From Obrimoposthia wandeli (lineage: Eukaryota): DNA of 64,000 nt. Every line of letters begins with the position of its first letter. The stretch's first letter is position 1. The stretch covers positions 124,001 to 188,000 of the forward strand of contig CDROCS010003502.1 in the NCBI GenBank assembly GCA_977020255.1, written 5' to 3'. Position numbers and translations under genes: made by a program. Of the stretch, positions 43,463 to 58,027 are shown one piece after another. The notes under the pieces were generated by a model, which was given only the letters and a program-made list of their open reading frames with translations, was not told where the DNA came from and searched no databases.

Positions 43463-44131
43463 AGAAGTGTAAAGTGTCGGTTCTAAAACAATAGCACACA
43501 AAGCCCCCCCCCCCCCGAACAAGGCACAAGGAACAAAGCACATCTGAAATTTGTTTAGTCATACAGATGTGCTTTGTTCCTTGTGCCTTGTTCGGGGGGG
43601 GGGCTTTGTGTGCTATTGTTTTAGAACCGACACTTTACGTCTCGAAATTTGTTTGGTCTTATGCGTCACTTACGATTATGTAGGTTAATATTCTGTAACA
43701 TTTGTATATAGTTCAAANNNNNNNNNNNNNNNNNNNNNNNNNNNNNNNNNNNNNNNNNNNNNNNNNNNNNNNNNNNNNNNNNNNNNNNNNNNNNNNNNNN
43801 NNNNNNNNNNNNNNNNNNNNNNNNNNNNNNNNNNNNNNNNNNNNNNNNNNNNNNNNNNNNNNNNNNNNNNNNNNNNNNNNNNNNNNNNNNNNNNNNNNNN
43901 NNNNAAATATGTAAATTAAAAAATTTAAATTTTAATTCAAATTAAAAAATTAAAATTTTAATTCGAAAATTAAAATTTGAAATTAAACACAATTGACCGT
44001 CCCAAATTTTTATTTGCAACTATTTAATTTACTTAGTACTGCGACCTCATTCCAGGAGTTAGACTGCCCCGCATAACCGGACAGCTATCGCAGTTTTTAT
44101 CATAAGAAACGTTATTGTTTATAGTAGGAGT
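43463..44131 (+). repeat. Left TIR of the Polinton (contains assembly gap 43718-43904)
   Basis: Reverse complement of 57455-58027, with a few substitutions and indels. Confidence 0.95.
44038..44094 (-). ncRNA. Candidate small structured RNA in left TIR (second copy 57492-57548, + strand)
   Basis: GC-rich 57-mer closed by ACTGCGA/TCGCAGT, starting 29 nt after a TATAAACAAT box and followed by AATAAA. Function is inferred only. Confidence 0.35.
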
Positions 44132-44154
44132 TTAGTAAAAAAAAAAGTCTATGT

Positions 44155-44394
44155 TTATACATAATTATATTCATTGTCACAATCCATGCTTTCTTCTTCT
44201 TCTATTTTAATGATTGTTGCAACTTTAGGTTTAAAGTCTCCATTAAACAGGTGATACATATAAAGTTCTTCAATCCTTGAGACAAAAAGTTCTGGTGCAA
44301 CAAATAAGCTAAAGTACTTTTCAGTATACTGGGCCATCAAGGTAGGGCTCAGGTTATCATAGAGAGCTTGCAATTTTTCTTTAGAAGTAGTCAT
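44155..44394 (-). CDS. Polinton hypothetical protein (79 aa from first ATG)
   Basis: Open frame MTTSKEKLQ...; a TATAAACAC variant box lies 40 nt upstream of the ATG. Confidence 0.55.
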   Translation of the reverse strand: MTTSKEKLQALYDNLSPTLMAQYTEKYFSLFVAPELFVSRIEELYMYHLFNGDFKPKVATIIKIEEEESMDCDNEYNYV

Positions 44395-44559
44395 TTGAAA
44401 TAATGAGAAATTGGTTGATTGAAATGTGTTTATATTTATAGAGAATTTGTTAAAATTATCCAATGAAATTATCCAATGAGTAGCTAGTAGGAAGTCAAGA
44501 CATGGTTATGATACATACAATGTATTAAAAATAAACATCAATAAAAATATATACATACT

Positions 44560-44625
44560 ATAGCATTAAAAATATATACATACTATTGCATTAAAAAGAT
44601 ACATACTATCACATTAAAAATAAGA
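44560..44625. repeat. ~25-bp tandem repeat x3 (aaaaatatatacatactatagcatt-like)
   Basis: Directly visible, lying between the polB end and the 79-aa ORF. Confidence 0.8.
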
Positions 44626-44673
44626 GGATATTAGTTAATACTTTCAAGAGGTTACCCCAGATTTTATATACAC

Positions 44674-47600
44674 CTATCTTAGACTATAGTGTCCATATGC
44701 GACGGATTTGTTTTTCTCAAGCCAAACCCTTTTATCGTCATAACACCTTAACGCAATTTTATCATTATACATTGTAAATATACACTGTCTTACCATATAT
44801 TGAATTATTTTTGAGTTTATAAAACTCTTTATCAAATGTAGTAGTACCCTCTGCCCGTTTCCGACTATTGATATCAATATATGTTTTAAATATAGGAGCT
44901 TGATGAAACTTTATTGCTCTATGCACTTGTTTAATTTCTGCACCCAGAAACAAGTAAAATTGTAGTAGTTGTGAGTGTATGATGTAATTATTTTTATCCT
45001 CATGGGTCATCAACAGCTTTGAAGCTTTTGAGCCGGGAGGGATTTCTCTATTAGGCGCAATCGGTAAGTCATCAAGTTTATCATGAATACTGATGGGTAT
45101 GCCTAAATCAATTTCCAACAAGTATCCATGTTCTTTAAGACTCAAGTTCTGCATATTACCGTGAATATCCCTCTTAGTTATAAGCTCAATTATCGCTTCA
45201 AAACCGTCATATACCCATGTAAAATCTGTATGTGGTAACGGTTGACTCAAGGCCCAGCCATATAAGTTATTTATGTCAATATATAGGAGGAATGTTTCAT
45301 CTGTTGTTTTAACGTAATGTTTATTGATGAAAGTCATCCCTCCCCGTATCCCTGCCTCAAACATGTTATACATTTCGGGATCATGCAATAAATCCACATC
45401 ATACTCTAATGTTTTTAATGCGCTAGCCCAACTGAGACCAGGGATACTAAAGAAATTGAGCGCCTCTAGATTATCATCATCCCTTACTTTCTGTCTAAAG
45501 GCCTCAAAAACATCACATAACAGATACACGTCAAGTTTCATATACTCAAGCATGTAGTCTTTAATAGTATTACACCCTAATACGGTCCACATCATTAGGG
45601 CTTCATTATATTGTTGATCAGTGACTCGAGAAGGAAACTCAGATTTAGCGGGTAACTGCGTCTCCATAAGCCTATCAACACCACTAATATATTCATATGG
45701 AAATACCGCCTTACTTGTGGCAATATTAGGGTTTAGGTATTGTGTAGTATAAGGGCAACTTGGCAAGTATGAAACTAAGGATTCAAGACTTGACGTTGTA
45801 AAAAGGTATGAATCAATGAATTTCAATGTCCCCCTCTTCATCTCTATACGGAGGGACATGAACTTTTCACTTGATTTAGGGATAATTGAAAAGGATTTAC
45901 CTTTCAAGTCGGCATATTTTAAAATATGATGTATATCATAACCCATAAGGTTATGAAACACCACAGGTAAAACCGGTCTCTTTGCAAACTTGCGACTTAA
46001 ATTGCATTTGTTGCATGCCGCACCCAAGTATTTACCCGTGATATGATCATGATCTCTAACCATACGATCGTTTAATTTTTTACAAAGATAGCAATTAGTG
46101 CAATCTCTAAAGTTTAACATGTCATTATTAGTAAAAACCATAGGAACATTAATACTATTTACCCAAAAATCTGCCACTTCACCATTTATCAACTCAGTTA
46201 ATTTATCTACAAAGTTTTTAGCACACTGCAGACCGTAATAACTGAAATATTGTATTGAATTATTAGTGTTGTTTTTCAAAATCATCCCTATAGATATTGG
46301 TTTATGAATGTGTTTGAAAGTATTATGTGGCTCGAGTATTGACTCAAAGTCGGCATATACAACAAATGGTGGCGCAATAGATTTAGACCAGTCGGAAAAT
46401 TGACACTTGATCTCTTTAGGCATTGTAAACAAGGTTGTTAAATCTGTATTAATATTACAATGTGCCCTGTGTTTGTCATATGAAATCGTGGTTCGAAATC
46501 CAAAAGACATTTCTCACACCAAAAGAGACGCACATTATATTTTTGAGTATTTAAAAGTCTATTCAGGTTTGTAATCCCTGTATAGTGATAATTACCGCTC
46601 TGTTCCAACAGCAACAAGTTTACTACCTTTTCGCACTGTTTAAGACTCGTTCTATAAATAACATTAACATCTGGGTTTTTAAACACTAGATGACTACTAT
46701 GAGGCTCTACCTTTGTAGGTTTATAGGAGAATACTGTTATCGCTATATTATTGAGTTTTTCAAACGCCTTGATACCGTCTATCCTCATAGGACCAGGCTC
46801 ACATATAAGTTCATTTAAATAATCATTATAGTTTTCAACTCTTTGTCTGTTTCGATTGAAATCTTTATAGTGTAGGATACTGAGAACAGCGTATTTAAAA
46901 CACTGATCATCAGTATTATTTACGTTCACTATAGATAGTGTTTTAGCAAGCGCAACCGGGGTTTTTATAAATGATGATCCTGCTACGTTTGAAAGTGCAG
47001 TAAATTTAAAGGATACCAACAGAATTTTAAATACTGACCATCCCGAACTCATATCCTTATAAATTTCAATTTTATTGTTGAGCTCAACTGTTCTTGTAGT
47101 GATAAAATCTTGTTCAAAAATATTTGCTTTACAGCTTACATGCCATGTTTTATGTTGACCCTCGTTATTGACAAATTCGGTTTCAACACCAAACTGTATT
47201 TTACAGGGACCAAACACATCTATACTGCTAGTAAGTTCAGTTAGCATAGTATCGTTAATGTATAGTTTAAGCATGTTTAATCCACTAACATCAAAAACAA
47301 GGTTTGATTGAATTGCACCTCCTATTTGATTGTTAAAAGTTAATGTATTATCTGAATTAATTGTAACAATATTATCAAAGTCATCATCCGTAATAGTTAG
47401 GAGTGAGTCGAAAAAATCATTTTCTGTTATAAACTCGTCCTGATCTATAAGTTCATCAATATTATTATTATTTAAGATTTCATTAGGGCTTAAAGGCTCA
47501 ATAATTTCTACAACTTCAGGATAAGTATCAATTTCTACAACACTATCCGGTTCCCATGAGTCTACCACATCAAACTCTTCAGTAAAATTATTAGTTTTTG

Positions 47601-48084
47601 CTATTTTATTGTTGTCTATTGTTGGTACTCTCATTACTTTACGTTTGTATGCTGACTTTTTAGACTTAAAATACGTCAGATGATCCTTATGATCATAATA
47701 AAATGTTTGATAGTCAATACAATATAACACATCACAATGTGGACAAATAAAACCGCTTTTAAATTTATAATATTTAAGCATTACACTATGACATTCTATT
47801 CCATGATTAACGTTTGTGCAATACTTGTACAATGTACATAAGTTACTTCCTCCACGAAGTTTAGGGTATACATGGATAATAGCCCCCTCATGTAAAACAT
47901 CACCGATAATAGCTTCCCTTTCAAAGGGCATGCCATTACGGTTAAAATAAATTTGATCAGTCTCAAAGACTTCATATAATTTATTTGCCAGATCTGTAAT
48001 TTTCAGACCTGGACTAATATTAATGGGTTTGCAAGACCCTAATAAATTTGCAAATATTGTTATATCTGCTGGTAGTTTTCTCAA
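44674..48084 (-). pseudogene. polB: Protein-primed family B DNA polymerase (Ubl + terminal-protein region + EndoVII-like + exonuclease + partial palm); frameshifted and internally deleted
   Basis: YADFE, RDHDHITGKYLGAACNKCN, HNLMGYD, YIDINNLYG and KNNSIYGKT motifs, plus C-terminal KIALRCYDDKR..GHY. One-base frameshift at 46502-46505; catalytic YxDTDS motif absent (junction ~44785). Confidence 0.93.
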
Positions 48085-48085
48085 T

Positions 48086-48835
48086 CTACGCAGCTTCTGA
48101 CGAAATCTTTTTCCCTTCCCTACCTTCTGTTTTAAGTTTACTTAAATCAATATTTTGATTTTTTACTTTCTTTAATTGATTAAAATATTTTTTAAACGGG
48201 ATATTTTCAAAACCCGAGTATATCTCATTTACGTTGAAATTTTCTACTGAATTAACAGGTGACCCAACAGGTGTTCCTGGTTTAAAAAGTAAGGGGTAAC
48301 CTCTTGATTTAATTAACTTATTCTGCGACCCCATTCCAGGAGTTAGACTGCCCCGCGTTACCGGGCAGCTATCGCAGTCGGGAGAATAAGATTTTATATC
48401 CCTTATATCCCCAAAAAGTTTATATAAATGAGTATCATATGGAGAATGAGAATGAGAATGAGAATGAGAAGATGAAGAAGAAGAAGGAAGTTGAGAGTGA
48501 GAAGATTTCTCAAGAGATAAAAAAACTTTTGACATTTTCTTCTTTTCATCATCATCATCATATATTGTTGTTGGCATATTCTTCTTTTTCTTCTGCTTTC
48601 GGCTTCTTTTCTTAGTAGGAGCATGGTGCGTTGAAAGCCATGGTGCGATTGATATTGGCAGTGGTGTGACACTCTGTATTGCTAAATTAAATTAAAAATA
48701 ATAATAATAATAATCAAAATTACCTTTCTTCACAGGTGTCGCATCCAAGTCGACATCATCATCATCATCATCATCGACTGCAGGCTTCACTGTCCATTGT
48801 TTATTGCTGTTGTAAGCAAAAATAATTTTTGACAT
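48086..48835 (-). CDS. Spliced Polinton hypothetical protein, 235 aa (exons 48835-48724, 48681-48086; additional 5'-UTR intron 48879-48836); low-complexity, acidic and NLS-like basic tracts
   Basis: A 42-nt GT-AG intron joins MSKIIFAY...PVKK in frame to the 163-aa ORF; a 44-nt gtaagt...ttag intron ends immediately before the ATG. Confidence 0.7.
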
Positions 48836-49260
48836 CTAAAAAAAAATAATAAAAATAAAAATAAAATCAAAATACTTACTTTTCGAAATTGTGAATGAAA
48901 TTGATAAATGACACTACACTGATTGTTTATATATCGTTCACAATCAGTGTAGTTGCTGCCCTAGATGTACACGTCACACATCACGTGTGTACTTACAAAC
49001 TAGGAATGCGTAATAAAGACTCTTTATTCCCTAGTTGCTACACACGTGATCATAAAGGTTAATTACGGTCAATCAATTATGAATATTTTCATAACCGATA
49101 TTCACACCGTTAAACTTTAAATTTTTAAAAATAATTAACACCATTAATTTTCTCTTAATTAGTAGATTTTAAATCTATTTTTTAATTTATCAAAACTCAA
49201 ATTTTTTTTAATTTCGATGGGACAGCTATTTATAAAACAAATACGATTTTGAATACAAAT

Positions 49261-49266
49261 TTTATT
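49261..49266 (-). terminator. Probable polyadenylation signal (AATAAA) for the structural-gene block
   Basis: Lies ~35 nt downstream of the protease stop, at the start of the only long intergenic gap in the block. Confidence 0.45.
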
Positions 49267-49297
49267 ACCAATCAACACAAATAAAAAGGTTTGACAT

Positions 49298-49678
49298 TTA
49301 TATAGTTTGATCATACAACCATAAGATACATAGTGGACCGCAATTAGTAGTCAGTGGGTTTTGAGAACGAATTTTGTTGTAATATACATGTTTTCCTTGA
49401 GACTCTACATGCTTGATAAGTTTTCCCGGATAGTATACTCCAAGAGGGTCATACACATGTACAGAATTCCGTCTCACGAATAACGCAATCCAGTGTTCTC
49501 CAGGAAGATTTGAGGTATGTGTATTGACAATATATCCCCCAGGCGTTAATGTTGGGATTTTTTCCAACGGGTATACACCCTTAAATCGCGGTCCGAGCAG
49601 CAAACTAGTTATTTCATTCACCTGAACAGTACTTGTTGTTAATAAAATCTTAAAACATAAATTAAAAACTCACTTCAT
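49298..49678 (-). CDS. Adenain-like (adenovirus-type) cysteine protease, spliced, 112 aa (exons 49678-49674, 49631-49298)
   Basis: IVNT...PGEHWIAL and Q....NCG motifs. A 42-nt gtgagt...aag intron restores the typical MNT.Q...FKGVYP N-terminus; the ATG overlaps the capsid stop (ATGA). Confidence 0.9.
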
Positions 49679-50898
49679 ACAATCACACGTCGGCCTTTAG
49701 TTATTTCAAACTCAGAATCAAAAATCCCGTAAATCAGTACGTTTGTTGGGACTGTTAATGACTTGTGAAACTTGATGTCAAGGCGTAAATTACCCTGTTT
49801 TGCTAATTGGTTTTGCGTGATATCAAAGTCAGGGGCTAAAACAAACGTGAAAAATGGATATTTGGTTTCGAATTCATCCAGTGATACGCCATTGTTTATA
49901 TTCTTATCCAAATTACCCATATTTCTAATGATAGATTGGACATATGCAAAGGTGGTTTCACCTGTTTCAAAGTTTGTACTGTAATATTCGTTAAAATCAC
50001 TGTTTCTAGCAAGACTGATAGTGTTAACATTAGAATGATCGAATGTTGAAGAGTCTGTAGCACCATTACCGATAAGTTTTTCACCTGCTTGCAACGTAAT
50101 CAACACAAATTTAGGCAATTGTTCATCATCAAACACTTGATCCTTGTAAAAACTCGTAGAACCGATGGCTAAGGTATGATACATTAGCTTTCTGCGAGTA
50201 TAGGGATATACAGCATTCCTAGATTCAAGACCAATATTATGTCCCATTAAAACATCATTCTCAACTCTGACTCTTCTGACTTTAAGTTTAGCTTCAATAA
50301 ATATGATTCGCGCTAGAGTCGTTCCGTAGTTCAGACAAAACATAGATTTATTAGGTACAAGTCTTACCATGATAGACACACCAGGTAAGAGATACTTTGG
50401 TTGCTCAAAAATATCAGATCGAAGAGTCCCACACAAGTCAATTTCTTTTGAGCGAGCAGCCCAACCTTTACGCTTATCATCATCATCATCATAACCTATA
50501 CTCGACAAACAAGTGTCTTTAGTGTCTGTGCTATAGTTTAGTATGGTTTCAATCATAGCTTTTTGTGCATATTGAGGATGGGTTTCTACTACAGTATTAT
50601 TCATTGTTATATCTATGCTTTTAAATAGGGAATGCATCAAGAAATTTGATGGGACCACATTATCTGCAACAGCTATTTCTGTACCATCAGTTTTCGTTAC
50701 TTTAATTTTCACAAACAACAAGGTATCATTCAAATCTAAGTACTCAATATCTGAACCTTGGATTTTAAACAGAATCTCTGATGTTCTTGTTCCGGTAATA
50801 TTGTTTGTTGGATATATATCTTCAAAGCTACCATTATTTACAACTACCTGGGGCAAAGCTCGATCAAAAATACATAATTCAGATTTACCACAAGCCAT
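49675..50898 (-). CDS. Major capsid protein (Polinton PY, double jelly-roll; F54H12.2-like)
   Basis: KSEL..F, EYLDLNDTLL, FLMHSLF and LRSDIFEQPKYLLPGV motifs typical of Maverick MCP; 407 aa. Confidence 0.82.
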   Translation of the reverse strand: MACGKSELCIFDRALPQVVVNNGSFEDIYPTNNITGTRTSEILFKIQGSDIEYLDLNDTLLFVKIKVTKTDGTEIAVADNVVPSNFLMHSLFKSIDITMNNTVVETHPQYAQKAMIETILNYSTDTKDTCLSSIGYDDDDDKRKGWAARSKEIDLCGTLRSDIFEQPKYLLPGVSIMVRLVPNKSMFCLNYGTTLARIIFIEAKLKVRRVRVENDVLMGHNIGLESRNAVYPYTRRKLMYHTLAIGSTSFYKDQVFDDEQLPKFVLITLQAGEKLIGNGATDSSTFDHSNVNTISLARNSDFNEYYSTNFETGETTFAYVQSIIRNMGNLDKNINNGVSLDEFETKYPFFTFVLAPDFDITQNQLAKQGNLRLDIKFHKSLTVPTNVLIYGIFDSEFEITKGRRVIV

Positions 50899-50900
50899 TA

Positions 50901-51308
50901 TTAAGCAAATATTGTACCTTGTTTTCTTCGTTTGTTTATACTAAATGCTTTCTTTCTACCACTACCCTCTTGCTTTTTAGTTTCGGGTTCAACCGTTTGT
51001 GCTGCTTCACTTGCTTTACGTTTACGTCGATTTTTAATAATTTTAACAACTGTACCAAAAGCTTCCTTAGCCTCCGGTATGGCTCCGGCAACTTCCCCTA
51101 GTGCATGTTGTTTAAGCATTGGTAACACAGATTTGTTGTTCATTATTACATCTTGAACTGTTTTAACTCCAACACGACCTAATCTTTTCAGTATAGGGAA
51201 TGCTAACCGCCCCAATGTTTTCAACCATCCCGAACCGTACTGTTTACCTACAAAATATGGTAATTCACCACCTTGTTGAGGTCCACTAAATGTCTCAATT
51301 ATATTCAT
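50901..51308 (-). CDS. Small Polinton core/virion protein (135 aa from first ATG) with QxGG/QxGxG sites and an amphipathic helix
   Basis: QQGG, QYGSG followed by WLKTLGRLAFPILKRLG, QEGSG, basic C-terminus. Confidence 0.7.
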   Translation of the reverse strand: MNIIETFSGPQQGGELPYFVGKQYGSGWLKTLGRLAFPILKRLGRVGVKTVQDVIMNNKSVLPMLKQHALGEVAGAIPEAKEAFGTVVKIIKNRRKRKASEAAQTVEPETKKQEGSGRKKAFSINKRRKQGTIFA

Positions 51309-51344
51309 AACTGTAATGGACAACTATTTTTGAATACAGATTGT

Positions 51345-52481
51345 TTATACCTGATCTATACAACGGACATGTATGGTAAGGGATACTTTTGCATTGTTGG
51401 AAAAACTTATTGGCACACCTGCATCGTTTCTAATATTAATTTCAATGTTTGAGATTACATTTGATGCTAAAGGGATATACATGGGTCTGTATATTGCGAT
51501 ATTAACCGTGTCTCCTGGTGCTTTATTTTTATCTAACCATATAGATTTTAATAAGGGTATCATTTGACCTCCAACGTTTACAGGTTCACACAGACTAGAA
51601 TACAAGTACATGTGATCAAACTCGTAATTTAATCGAGGTAGTCCAGACCCGTTGCCCGTAAATCGTGATTTATCTAACCCTAATACATACATTAAACGTT
51701 GATCAAATCCAATATGCTCAATTCCATTCTTTAATACAAATTTTATTAGCTTATCATTATCATCAATATAAAATCTTTTAAATATGACGTCGCATTTAGA
51801 TTTAATGTATGCTACTAATGCATTTACATTATTATTATTTAAATCTTCTGTAAATACAATTTTCTTGTTGTATGAACCGGTTTTATAATGCATATATTGT
51901 AAATTATGTGCACTGCAATCAGGTCTGATAGACGTTGATCCAAGTAAAACTCCTTTATCATCAGACTCGAAACCTTCTGAAGTTAATGTATTGAAAATGA
52001 ATCCTAATTCATTTTTAGCGTCAACATCCATCTTGATATAGAATTTTTTGTTGTTGACGGATTTTATTAGTACAACATTATCCTTTTTATCAATACCTAC
52101 ACCAACTGTGCTTAAGGAAATAGAAAGCTTTGCAATCTTATCTTTAGACGTGACGGTGAGTTTTGATATTTTATTAATTGTCTTTTTAATAACTTTTGGT
52201 TCTGATTTATCACCATGCAATTGCGGTTCTTTCTTTTCTACTTCTACTTGAGTATGAATTACTGATAAAGATATTTGATCAGTCTGTTGATTGGAGAATT
52301 TAATAGAATAATTAATTTCACTGCCCTTATTTAAAATAACAGGAGTGTTTGTGTACGTAAATTCAGTTAATGCCGCCTCCCATTTACCATTTAACGTAAT
52401 TGGATTCTCCCAATCTACAGTGAATAATGAAGCCATATTATTAGGTTGAGTTTTCGGACAACTATTACTCGGTAAAATCAT
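51345..52481 (-). CDS. Minor capsid protein (penton, Polinton PX)
   Basis: LPSNS......N..S.F.......I.L.G.WE.AL.E N-terminus and YLYSSL.EPV.VG...PLL C-terminal motif. Confidence 0.78.
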   Translation of the reverse strand: MILPSNSCPKTQPNNMASLFTVDWENPITLNGKWEAALTEFTYTNTPVILNKGSEINYSIKFSNQQTDQISLSVIHTQVEVEKKEPQLHGDKSEPKVIKKTINKISKLTVTSKDKIAKLSISLSTVGVGIDKKDNVVLIKSVNNKKFYIKMDVDAKNELGFIFNTLTSEGFESDDKGVLLGSTSIRPDCSAHNLQYMHYKTGSYNKKIVFTEDLNNNNVNALVAYIKSKCDVIFKRFYIDDNDKLIKFVLKNGIEHIGFDQRLMYVLGLDKSRFTGNGSGLPRLNYEFDHMYLYSSLCEPVNVGGQMIPLLKSIWLDKNKAPGDTVNIAIYRPMYIPLASNVISNIEINIRNDAGVPISFSNNAKVSLTIHVRCIDQV

Positions 52482-53512
52482 ATAGAAATCTCTATCTGGC
52501 TTGCTTTGATCCCTGTTGATTCAGAATATCCATGCCACTTTACGAGATATTGTTTATTCTTACCACGGCCTTTAGATTTTACGACTTCTTGGATACGGAA
52601 AAGTGTAGGTTTATCAATTACTTGTAGTTCAGGTTCATAAAATTTCCCTGTTATTACATTACAGTCATCATCAACTATAGAGTACATTACAGGATTTGCA
52701 CGTTTGTCTATTTTCTCTATCCTAAACACTTCATCACTCCAATTCTGATCAAAGTTTTTAATAAAGGGGCTACCACTAAACTTTGATATCCGAACATAAT
52801 CACCAGTCTTATGTTTAGGTTTATTAACTTTATCGACTTGATTACGACTCAACCAAATTTCCATTGCATTTTTATCATTAATATCGACAGGTCTCAATCC
52901 GTCTAAACCTCTATGCTTACTGTGATTGTATGAAGTCATTACTTTTGGTAAAACGTCAACCCATCTTTTATTGCCTTGTGCAATAAAATGTCTTTTTAAT
53001 CGATCTCTCAATGTTCTATTAAACCTTTCAACTAGGGCAGCTTTGAATTGTGAAACTACAGAGTAATGTTCAATATTTAATTTTTTAAATAAACTACCTA
53101 CATTTTTGTTGTAAAACTCTTTACCCTTATCAGTTTGCACATGTATGGGGACAGTTTTATCAGTCATTATACTTAGAGCAGCCTCTATATCCTTACCTGA
53201 TTTAGATTTTACAGGTAATGCACGCGCATACCTTGTAAACACGTCAATACATGTTAAAATATACTTGTTACCATCATTGATACTTGCATATGGTATCATT
53301 TCCATCAAATCGGCCTGCCATAAATCGTTAGGACCACTTGTTCTGTATGCTCGAGTCGGGAACTTCCGCTTCATTGGCTTGTTTAGACTGTATGCTAGCT
53401 GATTGCTCAGCCATTTCTGAGTTTTCTTTTGAGTCGATTGACTTCTTAATGATAGTTTGCCAATGCCGCTGTACCCAGCTGGGTTTTCGGGATCGTACCA
53501 TATCGTTTCCAT
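52478..53512 (-). CDS. int: Retroviral-like DDE integrase with C-terminal chromodomain-like region
   Basis: WQADL, QTDKGKEF and VERFNRTL catalytic triad; C-terminal QYLVKWHGY. Confidence 0.96.
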   Translation of the reverse strand: METIWYDPENPAGYSGIGKLSLRSQSTQKKTQKWLSNQLAYSLNKPMKRKFPTRAYRTSGPNDLWQADLMEMIPYASINDGNKYILTCIDVFTRYARALPVKSKSGKDIEAALSIMTDKTVPIHVQTDKGKEFYNKNVGSLFKKLNIEHYSVVSQFKAALVERFNRTLRDRLKRHFIAQGNKRWVDVLPKVMTSYNHSKHRGLDGLRPVDINDKNAMEIWLSRNQVDKVNKPKHKTGDYVRISKFSGSPFIKNFDQNWSDEVFRIEKIDKRANPVMYSIVDDDCNVITGKFYEPELQVIDKPTLFRIQEVVKSKGRGKNKQYLVKWHGYSESTGIKASQIEISI

Positions 53513-53563
53513 TACAACAATTGAATTTAAAATCGATGTTTGGTATGTTATTACCCATTTTGT

Positions 53564-53893
53564 TTATGAGTTTATCAATTTTGCAATCAAAGGAGATACT
53601 AAAGTAGCAATTATAGGTATTAATGCACCGATAAAACCACCTTTTTGTTTTAGAATTACTCTACGTTTACCAGTTTTACTTTTAGTATTCACTAAATCAA
53701 GTAAAGCTTTTTGATGTTTTCTAAGGTTATGTTTATGATTACCGATTTTTACAGTACCTTTTGTAATATTAAACAAGACTTCAACCAACTTATCAATAAC
53801 AAAGGGTGGAAATGACTTGAGTATACGTTGTCTATATATGCTTGGAGCCTTGATTAAAGCCTGAAAGTAGGGAAGTATAGATTTTGATAACAT
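53564..53893 (-). CDS. Basic virion protein with adenovirus pX/mu-like hydrophobic C-terminus
   Basis: QKGG|FIGALIPIIATLVSPLIAKLINS resembles adenoviral pX (RGG|ILPLLIPLIAAAIG). Confidence 0.65.
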   Translation of the reverse strand: MLSKSILPYFQALIKAPSIYRQRILKSFPPFVIDKLVEVLFNITKGTVKIGNHKHNLRKHQKALLDLVNTKSKTGKRRVILKQKGGFIGALIPIIATLVSPLIAKLINS

Positions 53894-53924
53894 GTTTAAT
53901 GAATTAAACTATTTGCAATATTGT

Positions 53925-54236
53925 TTATAGTTTAATCCATTTACCAACTAGTTTATTTACACGCTTTTTATCCGACTTCTTAACCGACTTTCCAACTGCT
54001 TTCTTAACAGGTTTCTTCTTTAATGGTTTCTTTTTTACAGGTTTTCTCTTTACTGTCTTTACCGATTTCTTTAATGATTCATCGACTACTTTACGCTGAT
54101 GAAGCACTGATTTAATAAGATTTTTAATATGAGCATTCTTCTTTAACATCAATTTGTTATCATTAGCGTGTAATTTATCACCCGGTCTCCATTTAGGTCC
54201 AACTCCACTAGGCATTGTTTCTTTCATAAATGACAT
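53925..54236 (-). CDS. Lysine-rich, probably DNA-condensing core protein (103 aa from first ATG)
   Basis: KKSVKTVKRKPVKKKPLKKKPVKK tract. Confidence 0.6.
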   Translation of the reverse strand: MSFMKETMPSGVGPKWRPGDKLHANDNKLMLKKNAHIKNLIKSVLHQRKVVDESLKKSVKTVKRKPVKKKPLKKKPVKKAVGKSVKKSDKKRVNKLVGKWIKL

Positions 54237-54238
54237 GA

Positions 54239-54886
54239 TTAACAAGTAGATAGGCTTTTCTTTTGTTTATATACAAAATCATTATTGAAAATATCGGTTC
54301 TCACGCGTAAATCGTCTGGACATTCCTGTGTAAAATCTAAAAACAAGTATCCATGAGGGTTAGTTGTTGCATCTTGAAATGCGTCAATCAAATATTGCTT
54401 ATTACAAGGGAAAGCTTGACGGGCAACAAAGTCGATAACCGTTTGATCTCGCGGATTTTTAAATAATACTAGATAATGTACATTTAAATTCCGAGTACGG
54501 TGTTGACCGCCTTGATGAAAAAGATTTTGAGTGATAAAAATCACTGTTACATTTCTATGTCTAGCTATTTTGGTAAACAGGTTATTAAAACCCGACTCTT
54601 TATTTGCTTCATCAAACAAATCATCAATTACAATGACATCTCCTGAATTTAACCTCTCAGACCATTTATTATCAAAACCATTAATAAAATGAATACCCTT
54701 CAATTTACCTAATTCTGTTCGTGTTAGACCAGATTCACCTACACCTCCGTAATGCCAGTATATTCTACTAAACTTTTGATTAAACATGATTTTATTTTGA
54801 AGTAATTTAGTTACAAAATGTGTTTTCCCACTCCCACTAGGTCCTACTATTTGGTAAACCGCGTTATTTTTAAGTTTTATCATCAT
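54239..54886 (-). CDS. A32/FtsK-like genome packaging ATPase
   Basis: Walker A GPSGSGKT, Walker B VIVIDDL, RH..........TQN, and R...LN..Y.VLFKNPRD. Confidence 0.95.
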   Translation of the reverse strand: MMIKLKNNAVYQIVGPSGSGKTHFVTKLLQNKIMFNQKFSRIYWHYGGVGESGLTRTELGKLKGIHFINGFDNKWSERLNSGDVIVIDDLFDEANKESGFNNLFTKIARHRNVTVIFITQNLFHQGGQHRTRNLNVHYLVLFKNPRDQTVIDFVARQAFPCNKQYLIDAFQDATTNPHGYLFLDFTQECPDDLRVRTDIFNNDFVYKQKKSLSTC

Positions 54887-54916
54887 CAATAATAATAAAT
54901 CAAAAGAAACGATTGT

Positions 54917-55183
54917 TTATATACGTTTTATTAATATATACAACAACAGAGAATTAAAAATTGATGCAGAAAAGGTTATATACATCATGTTTGAACGATT
55001 AATTTGAACAAATTTTTCAAAATCCTTAATCCGTTTGATATCTCTATAGACATGGGTGCAAACAATTTCCTTTATATTATTACGAGAAAGTCCATCAAAA
55101 CTAGAAAAGTATTGAACTCCATTTATTGTTCCGTTTATAATTTCCTCGACTGCATCATCAACTAATTTATCGTTTTCATCCAT
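54917..55183 (-). CDS. Polinton hypothetical protein (88 aa, hydrophobic C-terminus)
   Basis: Tightly packed ORF with a TATAAACAAT box 31 nt upstream. Confidence 0.6.
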   Translation of the reverse strand: MDENDKLVDDAVEEIINGTINGVQYFSSFDGLSRNNIKEIVCTHVYRDIKRIKDFEKFVQINRSNMMYITFSASIFNSLLLYILIKRI

Positions 55184-55201
55184 TTATATAAATCATAAAT
55201 T

Positions 55202-56101
55202 TCAATTGTTTATACCATGAAATTTTACATTTCTTACTCTCCGTTCGATCAGACATCTGCATACTGGACATGAATGTAACATTCTAGAACATGATATACA
55301 TGTATTTACATGTCCACAAGGGAGAAATACTACTTCAATATGATTATTTAAACATACTACACATTCGGGTACCTTTAAAATGTATGAAAGTATATTTATA
55401 TATTGTTTTTCAGGTTTCATTTCTAAATTAGATAAATCACAAAGCAATTCAAATAGTGAATTGTATTCACCATATCGCATCATTTTATATTTTAAAACAG
55501 ATTTTATTCTATCTTTTGTGAAAAACTTTTTCAAATATCTGATTTGGTTTGTATCCATCAACATATCGAATTTCTCGATAGTCAATGGATATTCAATTAT
55601 ACAATCTGTTTCGATTTTCTCAATAACATTAGCCTCATTATAGGGTCCTAAACATTTTGAATAGCATATATCAGGTAATTTTATATCAATATCTGATACA
55701 TGTACTTTTCCAATCAATGGTGATGTATCAAAATCGATTTTCTTGTTCATAGTTTCAATTATTGATACATTTGAAACATTTAACTTTAAAAGAAATGGAC
55801 ATGTAGGAAAAAATTTCATATGTTGCTTCATTGGTTTAAGATACCATTCCCATTCGGATAACGCACCTTGACAGTATATACATTTTACTTTATCGGTTGA
55901 ATCATCATCATGTTTATAAAATCCGGCTTTAGCTAAATCATTTACAGATTGTTTCCCTTTAAAATTTATAATTAATGATCTTAATCTTTCACTTTCACGT
56001 CTATATTTCCAGTGTAAAACTTTCATTCTAGAATAACCTACTTTTCGTCTAACTAAAACATCATCAACAGTTGTATAATGAAGTATATAATCAACTAGCA
56101 T
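55202..56101 (-). CDS. iap: Inhibitor of apoptosis (single BIR + C-terminal RING)
   Basis: BIR: R..S...LAKAGFY...C-x2-C-x16-H-x6-C. RING: CVVC...FLPCGH..C..C......CPVCR. Confidence 0.93.
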   Translation of the reverse strand: MLVDYILHYTTVDDVLVRRKVGYSRMKVLHWKYRRESERLRSLIINFKGKQSVNDLAKAGFYKHDDDSTDKVKCIYCQGALSEWEWYLKPMKQHMKFFPTCPFLLKLNVSNVSIIETMNKKIDFDTSPLIGKVHVSDIDIKLPDICYSKCLGPYNEANVIEKIETDCIIEYPLTIEKFDMLMDTNQIRYLKKFFTKDRIKSVLKYKMMRYGEYNSLFELLCDLSNLEMKPEKQYINILSYILKVPECVVCLNNHIEVVFLPCGHVNTCISCSRMLHSCPVCRCLIERRVRNVKFHGINN

Positions 56102-56142
56102 TTCAAATCATGTAAGAATAAAATTCAACTAAAATTTATTGT

Positions 56143-56635
56143 TTATATCAAAAGTAAAATATCAGTTATTATCAAAGTCACATCAAAGTGATAATCCAAA
56201 TCCTTGAGACCGAGTATGACCACTTTCCCGCTTGCAAATATGTTGACGCATAGAGGATTGTGTTTTGTAAACCTTAAAGCAGGAAACAACTCAGGTTCGA
56301 ACATGCACGCAGCTCCACACTTTTGAGACAACTTGTATAGGTTCACCTTCTTACCTAAATCGACAGTAACCGTTACTGATTGAATACGATCAATCTTTAT
56401 TCTAAATGGACACTTGAGCAAAGTTGTAGTAATAGGTTTCTTGCAACCCATTATCCTGCATGCTCCTAATAATAACTAACTAACTAACTAACATAAAAAA
56501 CATACCTGAACGGAAGATTATAAGGGTATAATCCTTACACCTGTGCACGTACTGACATGGTTTCCCGGTTTTGAAGGGTAAGTGACTGATGTCTCCTTTA
56601 ACTTTACCTTTATAATTAATATTTGCAAGATTCAT
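56143..56635 (-). CDS. TATA-binding-protein-like protein, 150 aa, spliced (exons 56635-56506, 56465-56143)
   Basis: Repeat 2: VTVDLGKKVNL...FEPELFPAL...P...NIFASGKVVILGLK. Repeat 1: LANI...LIIFRSGACRIMGCK, completed by removing a 40-nt gtatgt...ttag intron. Confidence 0.85.
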
Positions 56636-56758
56636 GATTGAATTGATGGAAATAACCCAATCTATATATAAAATTTTTAAGCTAAAGATTATCCAATCAG
56701 AATCGAGTATGATATATATATAAGCTACCACTTTTGGTATAGAATTCATTATTTTGAT

Positions 56759-57406
56759 ATGAACTCTAAACAAACTAAATCTCTTAAGTTCGAGAAGCCA
56801 CCACCAACAAGGCTTACAGACACAGATGTGGATACCGATGATGATGATGTAGTTTTTATATCAAAACCAAAGAAGCAAACTATGACAAGCAACAACCATA
56901 AACAAACCAAGACTATCAAGATTGAGAAGCAAGCAACAAATGAGGATCTCTTTATTGATGATATAGTCTCTACACCCAAACATAAGAAACCGTTCAACAA
57001 TAAACCATCAGATGTAATATTTGAGTCTAACGATTTGAAGTACACCAAGCCGGTTATGTTTTATAACTGGCAAATGAATTTTGAAGACTCAATCATATAT
57101 GGATTCATGTTTCCGGTGGCTCTGAATAAGTCAAAATACGATTTCAAGATACATAGATTAAATCCGTCAGATATTGATGATCTTAACAAAACTTTTGAGT
57201 CGATGCATCTCAACATTATAGTTGGGAATCATATAATAATTCGAGCTGATCCTAATCTTTTCAAGCGAGATCACGACTTTAATGTTGACAATATGGGAAC
57301 TGGACTCAAGTGGATGATCGTCATTTCAATACAGGGATACAAAATCAACTGTACAGGTCTTCATAAACCAATCTGGAAAATTACTGATGGACAAGTTCGC
57401 TTATAA
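56759..57406 (+). CDS. Polinton hypothetical protein (215 aa), transcribed divergently from the TBP-like gene
   Basis: Clean ATG-stop ORF with a disordered N-half and a beta-rich C-half. Confidence 0.75.
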   Translation: MNSKQTKSLKFEKPPPTRLTDTDVDTDDDDVVFISKPKKQTMTSNNHKQTKTIKIEKQATNEDLFIDDIVSTPKHKKPFNNKPSDVIFESNDLKYTKPVMFYNWQMNFEDSIIYGFMFPVALNKSKYDFKIHRLNPSDIDDLNKTFESMHLNIIVGNHIIIRADPNLFKRDHDFNVDNMGTGLKWMIVISIQGYKINCTGLHKPIWKITDGQVRL

Positions 57407-57454
57407 TTGTACTAATATATATTTATCGATGTTACTTTGCTTTCTTCAATATAG

Positions 57455-58027
57455 ACTCCTACTATAAACAATAACGTTTCTTAAGATAAAAACTGCGATA
57501 GCTGTCCGGTTATGCGGGGCAGTCTAACTCCTGGAATGAGGTCGCAGTACTAAGTAAATTAAATAGTTGCAAATAAAAATTTGGGACGGTCAATTGTGTT
57601 TAATTTCAAAATTTTAATTTTTAATTTTCATATTTAATTTTCGAATTAAAATTTTAATTTTTTAATTTTCATATTTAATTTGAATTAAAATTTAAATTTT
57701 TTAATTTCCATATTTAATTTTTTAATTTTTAAATTTTAAATTTTAAATTTTTAAATTTTGAATATTTAAATTTTTGAACTATATACTTAATGTTACAAAA
57801 TATTAACCTACATAATCGTAAGTGACGCATAAGACCAAACAAATTTCGAGACGTAAAGTGTCGGTTCTAAAACAATAGCACACAAAGCCCCCCCCCCGAA
57901 CAAGGCACAAGGAACAAAGCACATCTGTATGACTAAACAAATTTCAGATGTGCTTTGTTCCTTGTGCCTTGTTCGGGGGGGGGGGGCTTTGTGTGCTATT
58001 GTTTTAGAACCGACACTTTACACTTCT
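57455..58027 (-). repeat. Right TIR of the Polinton (573 bp)
   Basis: Reverse complement of 43463-44131. Confidence 0.95.

What the first reader, a model, noticed from the sequence alone, without database searches (positions are those of the whole stretch)
47848..48084. Ubiquitin-like domain ending in LRGG fused to the N-terminus of the DNA polymerase polyprotein
Seen: ITIFANLLGSCKPINISPGLKITDLANKL...DQIYFNRNG...HEGAIIHVYPKLRGG|S follows ubiquitin's spacing (QIFVKTLTG...DQQRLIFAG...KESTLHLVLRLRGG) and is followed by a Cys/His-rich segment. Known: LRGG is the DUB cleavage end of ubiquitin and fits the adenain (M/I/L)xGG consensus; many Polinton-like pPolBs instead carry an N-terminal vOTU deubiquitinase. 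Inference: a cleavable Ubl leader controlling the polymerase N-end, or released as a conjugatable or decoy modifier, possibly acting with the element's IAP RING E3.
Basis: partly seen in the sequence, partly recalled or inferred. Interest (0 to 1): 0.72.

Follow-up and report, generated by a model that had tools for sequence, protein, structure and literature searches.

The report
Ubiquitin-like cut site in Polinton polymerase
A young family of virus-like jumping elements (Polintons) carries a likely ubiquitin-like domain ending in the letters LRGG inside its DNA-polymerase gene, at the spot where related polymerases begin, so it likely works as a built-in cut site that would free the polymerase from an extra front-end protein.

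Summary
The LRGG segment is real: 47848-48069, minus strand, in a 14.6-kb Maverick/Polinton with at least 150 near-identical copies. It is a likely but very divergent ubiquitin-like domain (22% identity to host ubiquitin; hhalign E 8e-4; no Pfam hit; the good AlphaFold model was guided by a ubiquitin alignment). Two first-reader claims fail. It is not N-terminal: in 35 of 41 copies the frame is open at least 200 codons upstream, continued by a predicted spliced exon, and the leader shows purifying selection; the window copy is frameshifted there and its polymerase is broken. Nor does it replace vOTU: the vOTU Cys/His pair is present. New evidence: relatives begin their polymerase with Met at, or one residue from, the residue after LRGG (6 of 7), and none of 88 homologues or 6 sister-family loci shows a Ubl. 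Best reading: a lineage-specific ubiquitin-fusion cut site that would restore the ancestral polymerase N-terminus, likely cut by the element's own vOTU. Cleavage and expression are untested; nothing links it to the IAP RING. My look-ups found no earlier scan note or paper on this. BEL/Pao retrotransposons in the same genome also fuse ubiquitin-LRGG to Gag.

The parts
43463..58027 (.). Maverick/Polinton element, AG...CT ends, 6-bp target duplication TATAAT
   Evidence: gene set
43463..44134 (.). left terminal inverted repeat (partly N in the window)
   Evidence: I1, I2, I5
57452..58027 (.). right terminal inverted repeat
48926..48933 (-). TATA-like box upstream of the predicted polymerase transcript (inferred)
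48836..48879 (-). predicted 5'-UTR intron (GTAAGT...TTTAG) ending right before the ATG
   Evidence: sequence only
48724..48835 (-). predicted first coding exon (ATG, acidic run)
   Evidence: exon plus short intron keep frame in 36 of 39 copies where they were located (41 examined)
48682..48723 (-). predicted 42-nt intron (39-48 nt across copies)
48070..48681 (-). leader coding region: low-complexity basic/acidic/Ser-His part, conserved ~120-codon part, basic NLS-like run; the window copy has a frameshift near 48110
47848..48069 (-). divergent ubiquitin-like domain (74 aa) ending in LRGG (47848-47859)
47650..47847 (-). Cys/His-rich module that is the first domain of related polymerases; begins with the Ser after LRGG
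47317..47328 (-). QIGG motif in front of the terminal-protein-like domain (candidate second cut site, inferred)
46975..47316 (-). terminal-protein-like domain (assigned by position, not folded here)
   Evidence: architecture from PMC11161782
46540..46974 (-). vOTU protease domain, Cys at 46900-46902 and His at 46585-46587
   Evidence: Cys and His in 49 of 49 aligned homologues
44700..46513 (-). exonuclease/HNH/palm part of pPolB, out of frame with the N-terminal part in this copy; about 0.6 kb including the DTDS motif is missing near 44780
49298..49669 (-). adenain-like protease
   Evidence: (Peptidase_C5, E 0.007, below the curated cut-off)
55202..56101 (-). BIR + RING (IAP-like) gene; no link to the Ubl shown

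Best explanation
This Polinton family has an extra, predicted spliced leader joined in frame to the front of its polymerase, and the leader ends in a likely ubiquitin-like domain whose LRGG tail would be cut, likely by the polymerase's own vOTU protease, releasing the leader and leaving the polymerase precursor with the same start as its relatives. Shown: the frame, the LRGG, its place at the relatives' start position, the intact vOTU Cys/His, coding-type constraint on the leader. Predicted: splicing, the beta-grasp fold. Inferred and untested: expression, cleavage, and which protease cuts (my split: vOTU 0.45, host deubiquitinase 0.3, adenain 0.25). One mRNA would thus yield a ~315-aa leader-Ubl protein and a Cys/His-TP-vOTU-Exo-Palm precursor starting with Ser.
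For: Initiator Met of relatives with a complete module lies 3 residues before the first Cys, exactly where the Ser after LRGG lies, in 4 of 7 distinct relatives, one residue off in 2 more, 9 residues off in 1. No Ubl profile hit in 88 pPolB homologues, 74 viral/metagenome loci or 6 loci of other Polinton families of this genome, 5 of which show Met at the module a few codons after an in-frame stop. Frame open at least 200 codons upstream in 35 of 41 copies; exon and 39-48 nt intron in frame in 36 of 39; hypervariable part keeps frame in 23 of 24 located; conserved leader has 10 synonymous to 7 non-synonymous shared variants against 7 to 29 private ones, p 0.01. The one hit of 10 among 1.84 billion proteins that aligns across the whole Ubl is a Pfam ubiquitin domain ending LRGG, 33% identical. 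AlphaFold with a ubiquitin alignment gives pLDDT 82.6, TM 0.81-0.88 to ubiquitin/NEDD8/SUMO, Z 12.4. vOTU Cys/His invariant in 49 of 49; the TP/vOTU junction proposed as its own site has Gly at P2 in 45 of 49 and L/V/M at P4 in 31 of 49, and reads LRGG in one homologue. Low identity to host ubiquitin (22%), unlike the 59-76% of retrotransposon-borne copies, fits a private protease (inference). Precedent: ubiquitin inserts make an authentic NS3 N-terminus in pestiviruses (PMC8310069).
Against: No cleavage or expression data. Ubiquitin likeness is marginal: no Pfam or PDB sequence hit, host-Ubl HMM at shuffle level, the Ubl alone scores 26-27 bits against its best hit, E 0.5-1 at library scale, and the E 9e-4 needed a chance extension past LRGG. 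The single-sequence model failed (pLDDT 34.5) and the good model had ubiquitins in its alignment with no negative control. No homologue shares this Ubl, so LRGG conservation across lineages could not be shown, and within the family the Ubl has too few shared variants to test selection (1 synonymous, 1 missense). Relatives' start codons come from ORF calls; some have acceptor-like sequence before the ATG and could have unseen upstream exons. Only 12 of 49 homologues match [LIVM]xG[GSA] fully at the TP/vOTU junction, this element reads VAGS there, and that site is itself a hypothesis (PMC11161782).
Confidence: 0.62

Rival explanations
1. The domain is a ubiquitin-like fold that stays attached and tunes the stability or location of the precursor, like the N-terminal Ubls of nematode Maverick cargo proteins; LRGG is a leftover of the captured domain.
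For: Maverick cargo proteases and kinases carry Ubls that appear to set protein abundance (10.1101/2022.07.12.499685, passages). Pro two residues before the LRGG and loss of I44 by alignment may hinder host DUBs, which use the Ile44 patch (PMC3744425).
Against: A domain drifted to 22% identity would not be expected to keep an exact LRGG unless it is used; the tail sits at the relatives' start position.
Confidence: 0.15
2. There is no ubiquitin fold: two genes were fused, the junction carries an adenain-type LxGG site, and the resemblance upstream is chance.
For: No Pfam, PDB or host-Ubl HMM hit; body-only similarity to host ubiquitin is matched by 55 of 1488 natural decoys; Gly-Gly-X is the adenovirus maturation site (PMC4584293); the element encodes an adenain-like protease.
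Against: Full-length collinear hhalign match, 33% identity over the whole length to a true ubiquitin-family domain with 0 of 2000 shuffles as good (that partner was selected as best hit), correct length before the GG, and the element's other GG-type motifs in basic core-like proteins have Gln at P4 (4 of 4).
Confidence: 0.14
3. One reading: after the cut the leader-Ubl has a free diglycine end and is conjugated to targets or acts as a decoy, perhaps with the element's IAP RING ligase.
For: A cut would leave a free GG end (sequence); a BIR-RING gene is in the element; viral ubiquitin genes exist in baculoviruses (PMC4584293).
Against: I44, K48, K63 and R42 positions are not kept by alignment (register of the I44 strand is alignment-guided); the released piece would carry ~240 extra residues; no E1/E2 among 17 ORFs scanned; baculovirus v-ubi is 76% identical to ubiquitin, this is 22%; IAP genes occur in adintoviruses generally (PMC8502044).
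Confidence: 0.08

Closest known systems
Polinton/Maverick (Alpha adintovirus-type) pPolB with TP-vOTU-EXO-PALM architecture (PMC11161782, PMC8502044; passages read)
   Same: TIRs, 6-bp duplication, rve integrase, A32-type ATPase, adenain, capsid genes, pfam03175 polymerase with vOTU Cys/His.
   Different: An extra ~315-aa spliced leader ending in Ubl-LRGG precedes the usual first domain; neither paper's main text mentions a Ubl in pPolB.
Ubiquitin inserts as processing signals in cytopathic pestiviruses (BVDV Osloss, CP1, CP Rit; PMC8310069, passages)
   Same: An internal ubiquitin unit whose GG end defines the authentic N-terminus of the next replication protein.
   Different: Those are near-exact host ubiquitin captured in RNA virus variants and cut by host hydrolases; here the domain is 22% identical, fixed in a DNA element family, with two candidate proteases of its own.
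Ubiquitin-L40 and ubiquitin-S27a fusion precursors (host copies seen in L136, L132)
   Same: Ub-LRGG followed by a Cys-rich zinc-binding partner released by cleavage (mechanism recalled).
   Different: True ubiquitin at the very N-terminus that feeds the ubiquitin pool; here divergent and internal.
Ubl domains of nematode Maverick cargo WASP proteases and KRMA kinases (10.1101/2022.07.12.499685, passages)
   Same: Divergent ubiquitin-like folds in Maverick-borne proteins.
   Different: They are N-terminal domains of cargo genes, not of the polymerase, and no GG cleavage is described in the passages read.
TYMV PRO, an OTU-family polyprotein protease/deubiquitinase (PMC3744425, passages)
   Same: A viral OTU that both processes its own replication polyprotein and recognises ubiquitin.
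   Different: RNA virus; its polyprotein has no built-in Ubl; activity of the Polinton vOTU is only predicted.

Membership tests
Polinton/Maverick | long TIRs with AG...CT ends and 6-bp target duplication | tested here: met
Polinton/Maverick | pPolB, rve integrase, packaging ATPase, protease, capsid genes | tested here: met
   (protease and MCP hits are below curated cut-offs)
pPolB TP-vOTU-EXO-PALM | vOTU with catalytic Cys and His | tested here: met
   49 of 49 homologues; present in the window copy
pPolB TP-vOTU-EXO-PALM | terminal-protein fold before the vOTU | not tested
   assigned by position only; not folded
pPolB TP-vOTU-EXO-PALM | continuous frame with palm DTDS motif in the window copy | tested here: not met
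   two frameshifts and a deletion; two sibling copies checked have DTDS
Ubiquitin-like (beta-grasp) domain | 70-76 residues collinear with ubiquitin ending in LRGG | tested here: met
Ubiquitin-like (beta-grasp) domain | beta-grasp fold by prediction independent of a ubiquitin alignment | tested here: inconclusive
   single sequence pLDDT 34.5; guided model pLDDT 82.6, TM up to 0.88
Pfam ubiquitin family PF00240 | score above the curated cut-off | tested here: not met
   no family reported
Conjugatable (type I) ubiquitin-like modifier | ubiquitin I44 patch and chain lysines K48/K63 | tested here: not met
   Asn, Met and Glu at these positions by alignment; I44 register is alignment-guided
Conjugatable (type I) ubiquitin-like modifier | processing to a free diglycine and activation by an E1 | not testable with these tools
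   needs biochemistry; no E1/E2 among 17 element ORFs
Ubiquitin-fusion processing signal | GG end coincides with the authentic N-terminus of the downstream protein | tested here: met
   Met at that position in 4 of 7 relatives, one off in 2
Ubiquitin-fusion processing signal | demonstrated cleavage after GG | not testable with these tools
   no protein or RNA data

The most novel reading that the evidence does not exclude
The element carries a private ubiquitin-like/protease pair in one chain: its vOTU recognises the co-evolved Ubl, cuts off the leader to switch on the polymerase precursor, and the freed leader-Ubl with its diglycine end acts as a nuclear decoy or modifier against host ubiquitin defences; the ubiquitin-Gag fusions of BEL/Pao elements in the same genome would be a convergent answer to the same host pressure.
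Probability: 0.15. Interest if true: 0.78.

Novelty: new variant of a known kind. Interest (0 to 1): 0.5.

Why it matters
Processing of Polinton polymerases by their vOTU is a structural hypothesis without a tested site (PMC11161782). A natural Ubl-LRGG placed exactly at the ancestral polymerase start gives a small, defined substrate for testing whether a Polinton vOTU or adenain is an active ubiquitin-type protease. It would also be a DNA-element counterpart of the pestivirus ubiquitin processing signal, and it shows that Polinton polymerase genes can gain spliced leaders that ORF-based annotation misses. The family seems young (94-99% identity among copies), so the gain was compatible with recent spread. 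The feature is so far confined to one family in one genome, which limits its reach.

Tried and rejected
No RNA holder listed for the region; the four runs laid were contigs of one sample with even cover of introns and no splice joints, so they say nothing on expression. Complex prediction of vOTU with the Ubl gave 'no answer' (score 0.01, alignments not used): no evidence either way. Single-sequence AlphaFold failed. Homologue searches for the Ubl found nothing: 0 of 4487 candidates; 0 of 4; the ESM Atlas did not hold the sequence and gave no usable hit for the Cys/His module. An excess of synonymous changes in the Ubl (8 of 17) was rejected because half of the copies had been chosen by protein similarity to that region. 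LRGG at residue 75 of P0064 looked like a second Ubl fusion but is the TP/vOTU junction of a truncated call. A 38-61 nt intron rescuing the window copy's frameshift was considered and dropped: siblings are simply in frame. The bacterial promoter scan is not applicable. Rfam gave only sub-threshold miRNA hits on the terminal hairpins. Paper searches without a report of a Ubl in a Polinton polymerase; for ubiquitin-Gag: (listings only). Supplements (for example the adintovirus genome maps of PMC8502044) and Repbase entries were not read and could annotate such a domain.

Full report
1. Observation. The quoted peptide is on the minus strand at 47848-48069, in the stop-to-stop frame 46438-48141, ending in LRGG and followed by a Cys/His-rich segment. 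It lies in a 14.6-kb element (43463-58027) with terminal inverted repeats of about 0.6 kb, AG...CT ends and a TATAAT duplication. Pfam on 17 ORFs finds pPolB with an endonuclease VII insert, rve integrase, A32-type ATPase, BIR+RING, TBP-like, and weak adenain and capsid hits: a Maverick/Polinton. The genome search lists 1382 DNA candidates and 150 of 150 scored protein matches at 98-100% identity, 13 of them in open frames of 1,538 codons or more (counted by hand). The host is probably an animal (inference from BEL/Pao elements and IAP; recalled distribution).

2. The domain is internal. In 18 of 19 sibling loci the frame is open 267-280 codons upstream. Over 41 copies (40 picked from the top hits plus the window) LRGG is present in 41 and the frame is open at least 200 codons in 35. 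The window copy has a frameshift near 48110, a second in the zinc finger after the vOTU, and lacks about 0.6 kb of the palm including DTDS, so the 'N-terminal' position is a defect of this copy. Further upstream an ATG exon and a GT-AG intron of 39-48 nt keep frame in 36 of 39 copies where they were located, although intron lengths include non-multiples of three. The hypervariable part of the next exon keeps frame in 23 of 24 copies located. The conserved part of the leader has 10 synonymous and 7 non-synonymous shared variants against 7 and 29 private ones (p 0.01); the TP-to-palm core shows the same pattern (41:19 against 94:225). So the predicted precursor is about 1,580 residues with a leader of about 240 residues before the Ubl. 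Splicing is predicted from sequence only.

3. Is it ubiquitin-like? For: among 1.84 billion proteins 10 hits passed E 0.001; the one that aligns across the whole segment is a Pfam ubiquitin domain ending in LRGG (P0098), 33% identical, with 0 of 2000 shuffles as good. hhalign to an alignment of 14 host ubiquitin/Ubl domains covers 71 of 74 columns at E 8.3e-4, probability 24%; a control stretch gave 0.1%. With a 17-row ubiquitin alignment AlphaFold gives pLDDT 82.6 and the model matches ubiquitin, NEDD8, SUMO and other Ubls (TM up to 0.88; Z 12.4, rmsd 1.8, 74 aligned). Against: no Pfam or PDB sequence hit; a 51-sequence host Ubl HMM scores it like shuffles; the Ubl alone reaches E 0.5-1 against P0098 at library scale; the unguided model failed and the guided model is partly circular. 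Tail-free alignment to host ubiquitin and a NEDD8-like protein is matched by 27 and 14 of 2000 shuffles and by 55 and 32 of 1488 natural decoys. I put a true beta-grasp origin at about 0.85. By alignment L8, H68, L73-G76 are kept, while I44, R42, K48 and K63 are not.

4. What the LRGG marks. The 88 polymerase homologues found with the TP-vOTU region often begin with the same Cys/His module. In 7 distinct relatives with a complete module at the start, the first Met lies 3 residues before the first Cys in 4, which is the position of the Ser after LRGG, 2 or 4 residues in 2, and 9 in 1 (one of the four, P0089, is not shown to be part of a polymerase). In five metagenome loci an in-frame stop lies 5-69 codons before that Met. 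Six loci of other Polinton families in the same genome show the module at the start of the polymerase, 5 with Met two or three codons after a stop. No Ubl profile hit was found in the 88 homologues, 74 viral/metagenome loci or these 6 loci; the profiles are not very sensitive and upstream exons cannot be excluded. The chance of LRGG within one residue of a given site is about 2e-5, of any [LIM]xGG about 1e-3. The simplest reading is a lineage-specific gain of a leader whose GG end reproduces the old start.

5. Which protease? The polymerase keeps the vOTU that PMC11161782 (passages and section 5) proposes as the enzyme that frees the terminal protein; Cys and His are present here and in 49 of 49 aligned homologues. 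At the TP/vOTU junction homologues have Gly at P2 in 45 of 49 and L/V/M at P4 in 31 of 49, but only 12 of 49 fit [LIVM]xG[GSA] fully; one reads LRGG. An OTU that both processes a polyprotein and recognises ubiquitin is known from TYMV (PMC3744425, passages). Host DUBs make authentic NS3 from ubiquitin inserts in pestiviruses (PMC8310069, passages), but they use the Ile44 patch, which looks lost here; ubiquitin copies on retrotransposons of this genome stay 59-76% identical to host ubiquitin, this one 22%. Adenain recognises Gly-Gly-X (PMC4584293, passages; the (M/I/L)xGG form is recalled), but the four GG/GS motifs in the element's basic core-like proteins have Gln at P4, as does QIGG before the TP; that these are adenain sites is an inference. 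I favour the vOTU (0.45) over a host DUB (0.3) and adenain (0.25). None is tested.

6. Rivals. An uncut regulatory Ubl, as in nematode Maverick cargo proteins (10.1101/2022.07.12.499685, passages): 0.15. A chance look-alike before an LxGG site: 0.14. A conjugatable modifier working with the IAP RING: 0.08; IAP genes are reported in adintoviruses generally (PMC8502044, passages) and nothing ties this one to the Ubl.

7. Novelty. Five paper searches and passages of PMC11161782, PMC8502044, PMC11915834 and PMC6431247 gave no Ubl inside a Polinton polymerase; supplements and Repbase were not seen. The principle, ubiquitin fusion as a processing signal, is known, so this is a new variant of a known kind, seen so far in one family. 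In passing, several BEL/Pao-type retrotransposon families of this genome carry ubiquitin-L[RK]GG in frame before Gag, which suggests that mobile elements of this host reuse the device.

8. Verdict. Observation partly confirmed, interpretation partly supported; best explanation 0.62; interest 0.5.

Noticed in passing
L141-L144, L145, L149, L164 and others (G000; e.g. L141:1495-1722): BEL/Pao-type LTR retrotransposons carry a ubiquitin copy (59-76% identical to host ubiquitin in the aligned examples) ending LRGG or LKGG in frame before Gag (Pfam ubiquitin + DUF1759 in 2 of 2 scanned, zf-CCHC in 1); at least two families by eye. Two paper searches and one scan look-up listed nothing on it.
   Followed up: partly
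window 48316-48384, 44034-44100 and 57488-57554: A ~60-nt GC-rich motif with a three-way-junction-like fold (z -2.1 to -2.8 on the sense strand) lies inside the leader coding region and in both TIRs just downstream of the last gene; no Rfam match, no match in other families' loci.
   Followed up: partly
window 47650-47847; P0089, P0091, P0092, P0094-P0097, L050: The Cys/His module is an unnamed, repeatable zinc-binding-like unit found at the start of these polymerases, in tandem arrays and in stand-alone ORFs; no Pfam family fits it.
   Followed up: partly
L147, L150, L166 (G000): Tandem arrays of divergent ubiquitin-like units (about 45-58% identical to ubiquitin) with a stop or short intron after ...RLR in each unit; several such arrays in the genome.
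   Followed up: no
window 56143-56451 (-): TBP-like gene in the element (Pfam TBP, E 3e-13), with a TATA-like box before the polymerase transcript.
   Followed up: no
window 43469-43638 and 57853-58021: Near-perfect 170-nt hairpins just inside both ends; already noted by the scan.
   Followed up: no
L205-L210 (G000): Older, decayed Polinton families (apparently three) share the genome; their polymerases start at the Cys/His module without a detectable Ubl.
   Followed up: partly
window 50901-51308 and 53564-53893 (-): Basic core-like ORFs carry Q-x-G-[G/S] motifs (4 sites), candidate maturation-protease sites.
   Followed up: no
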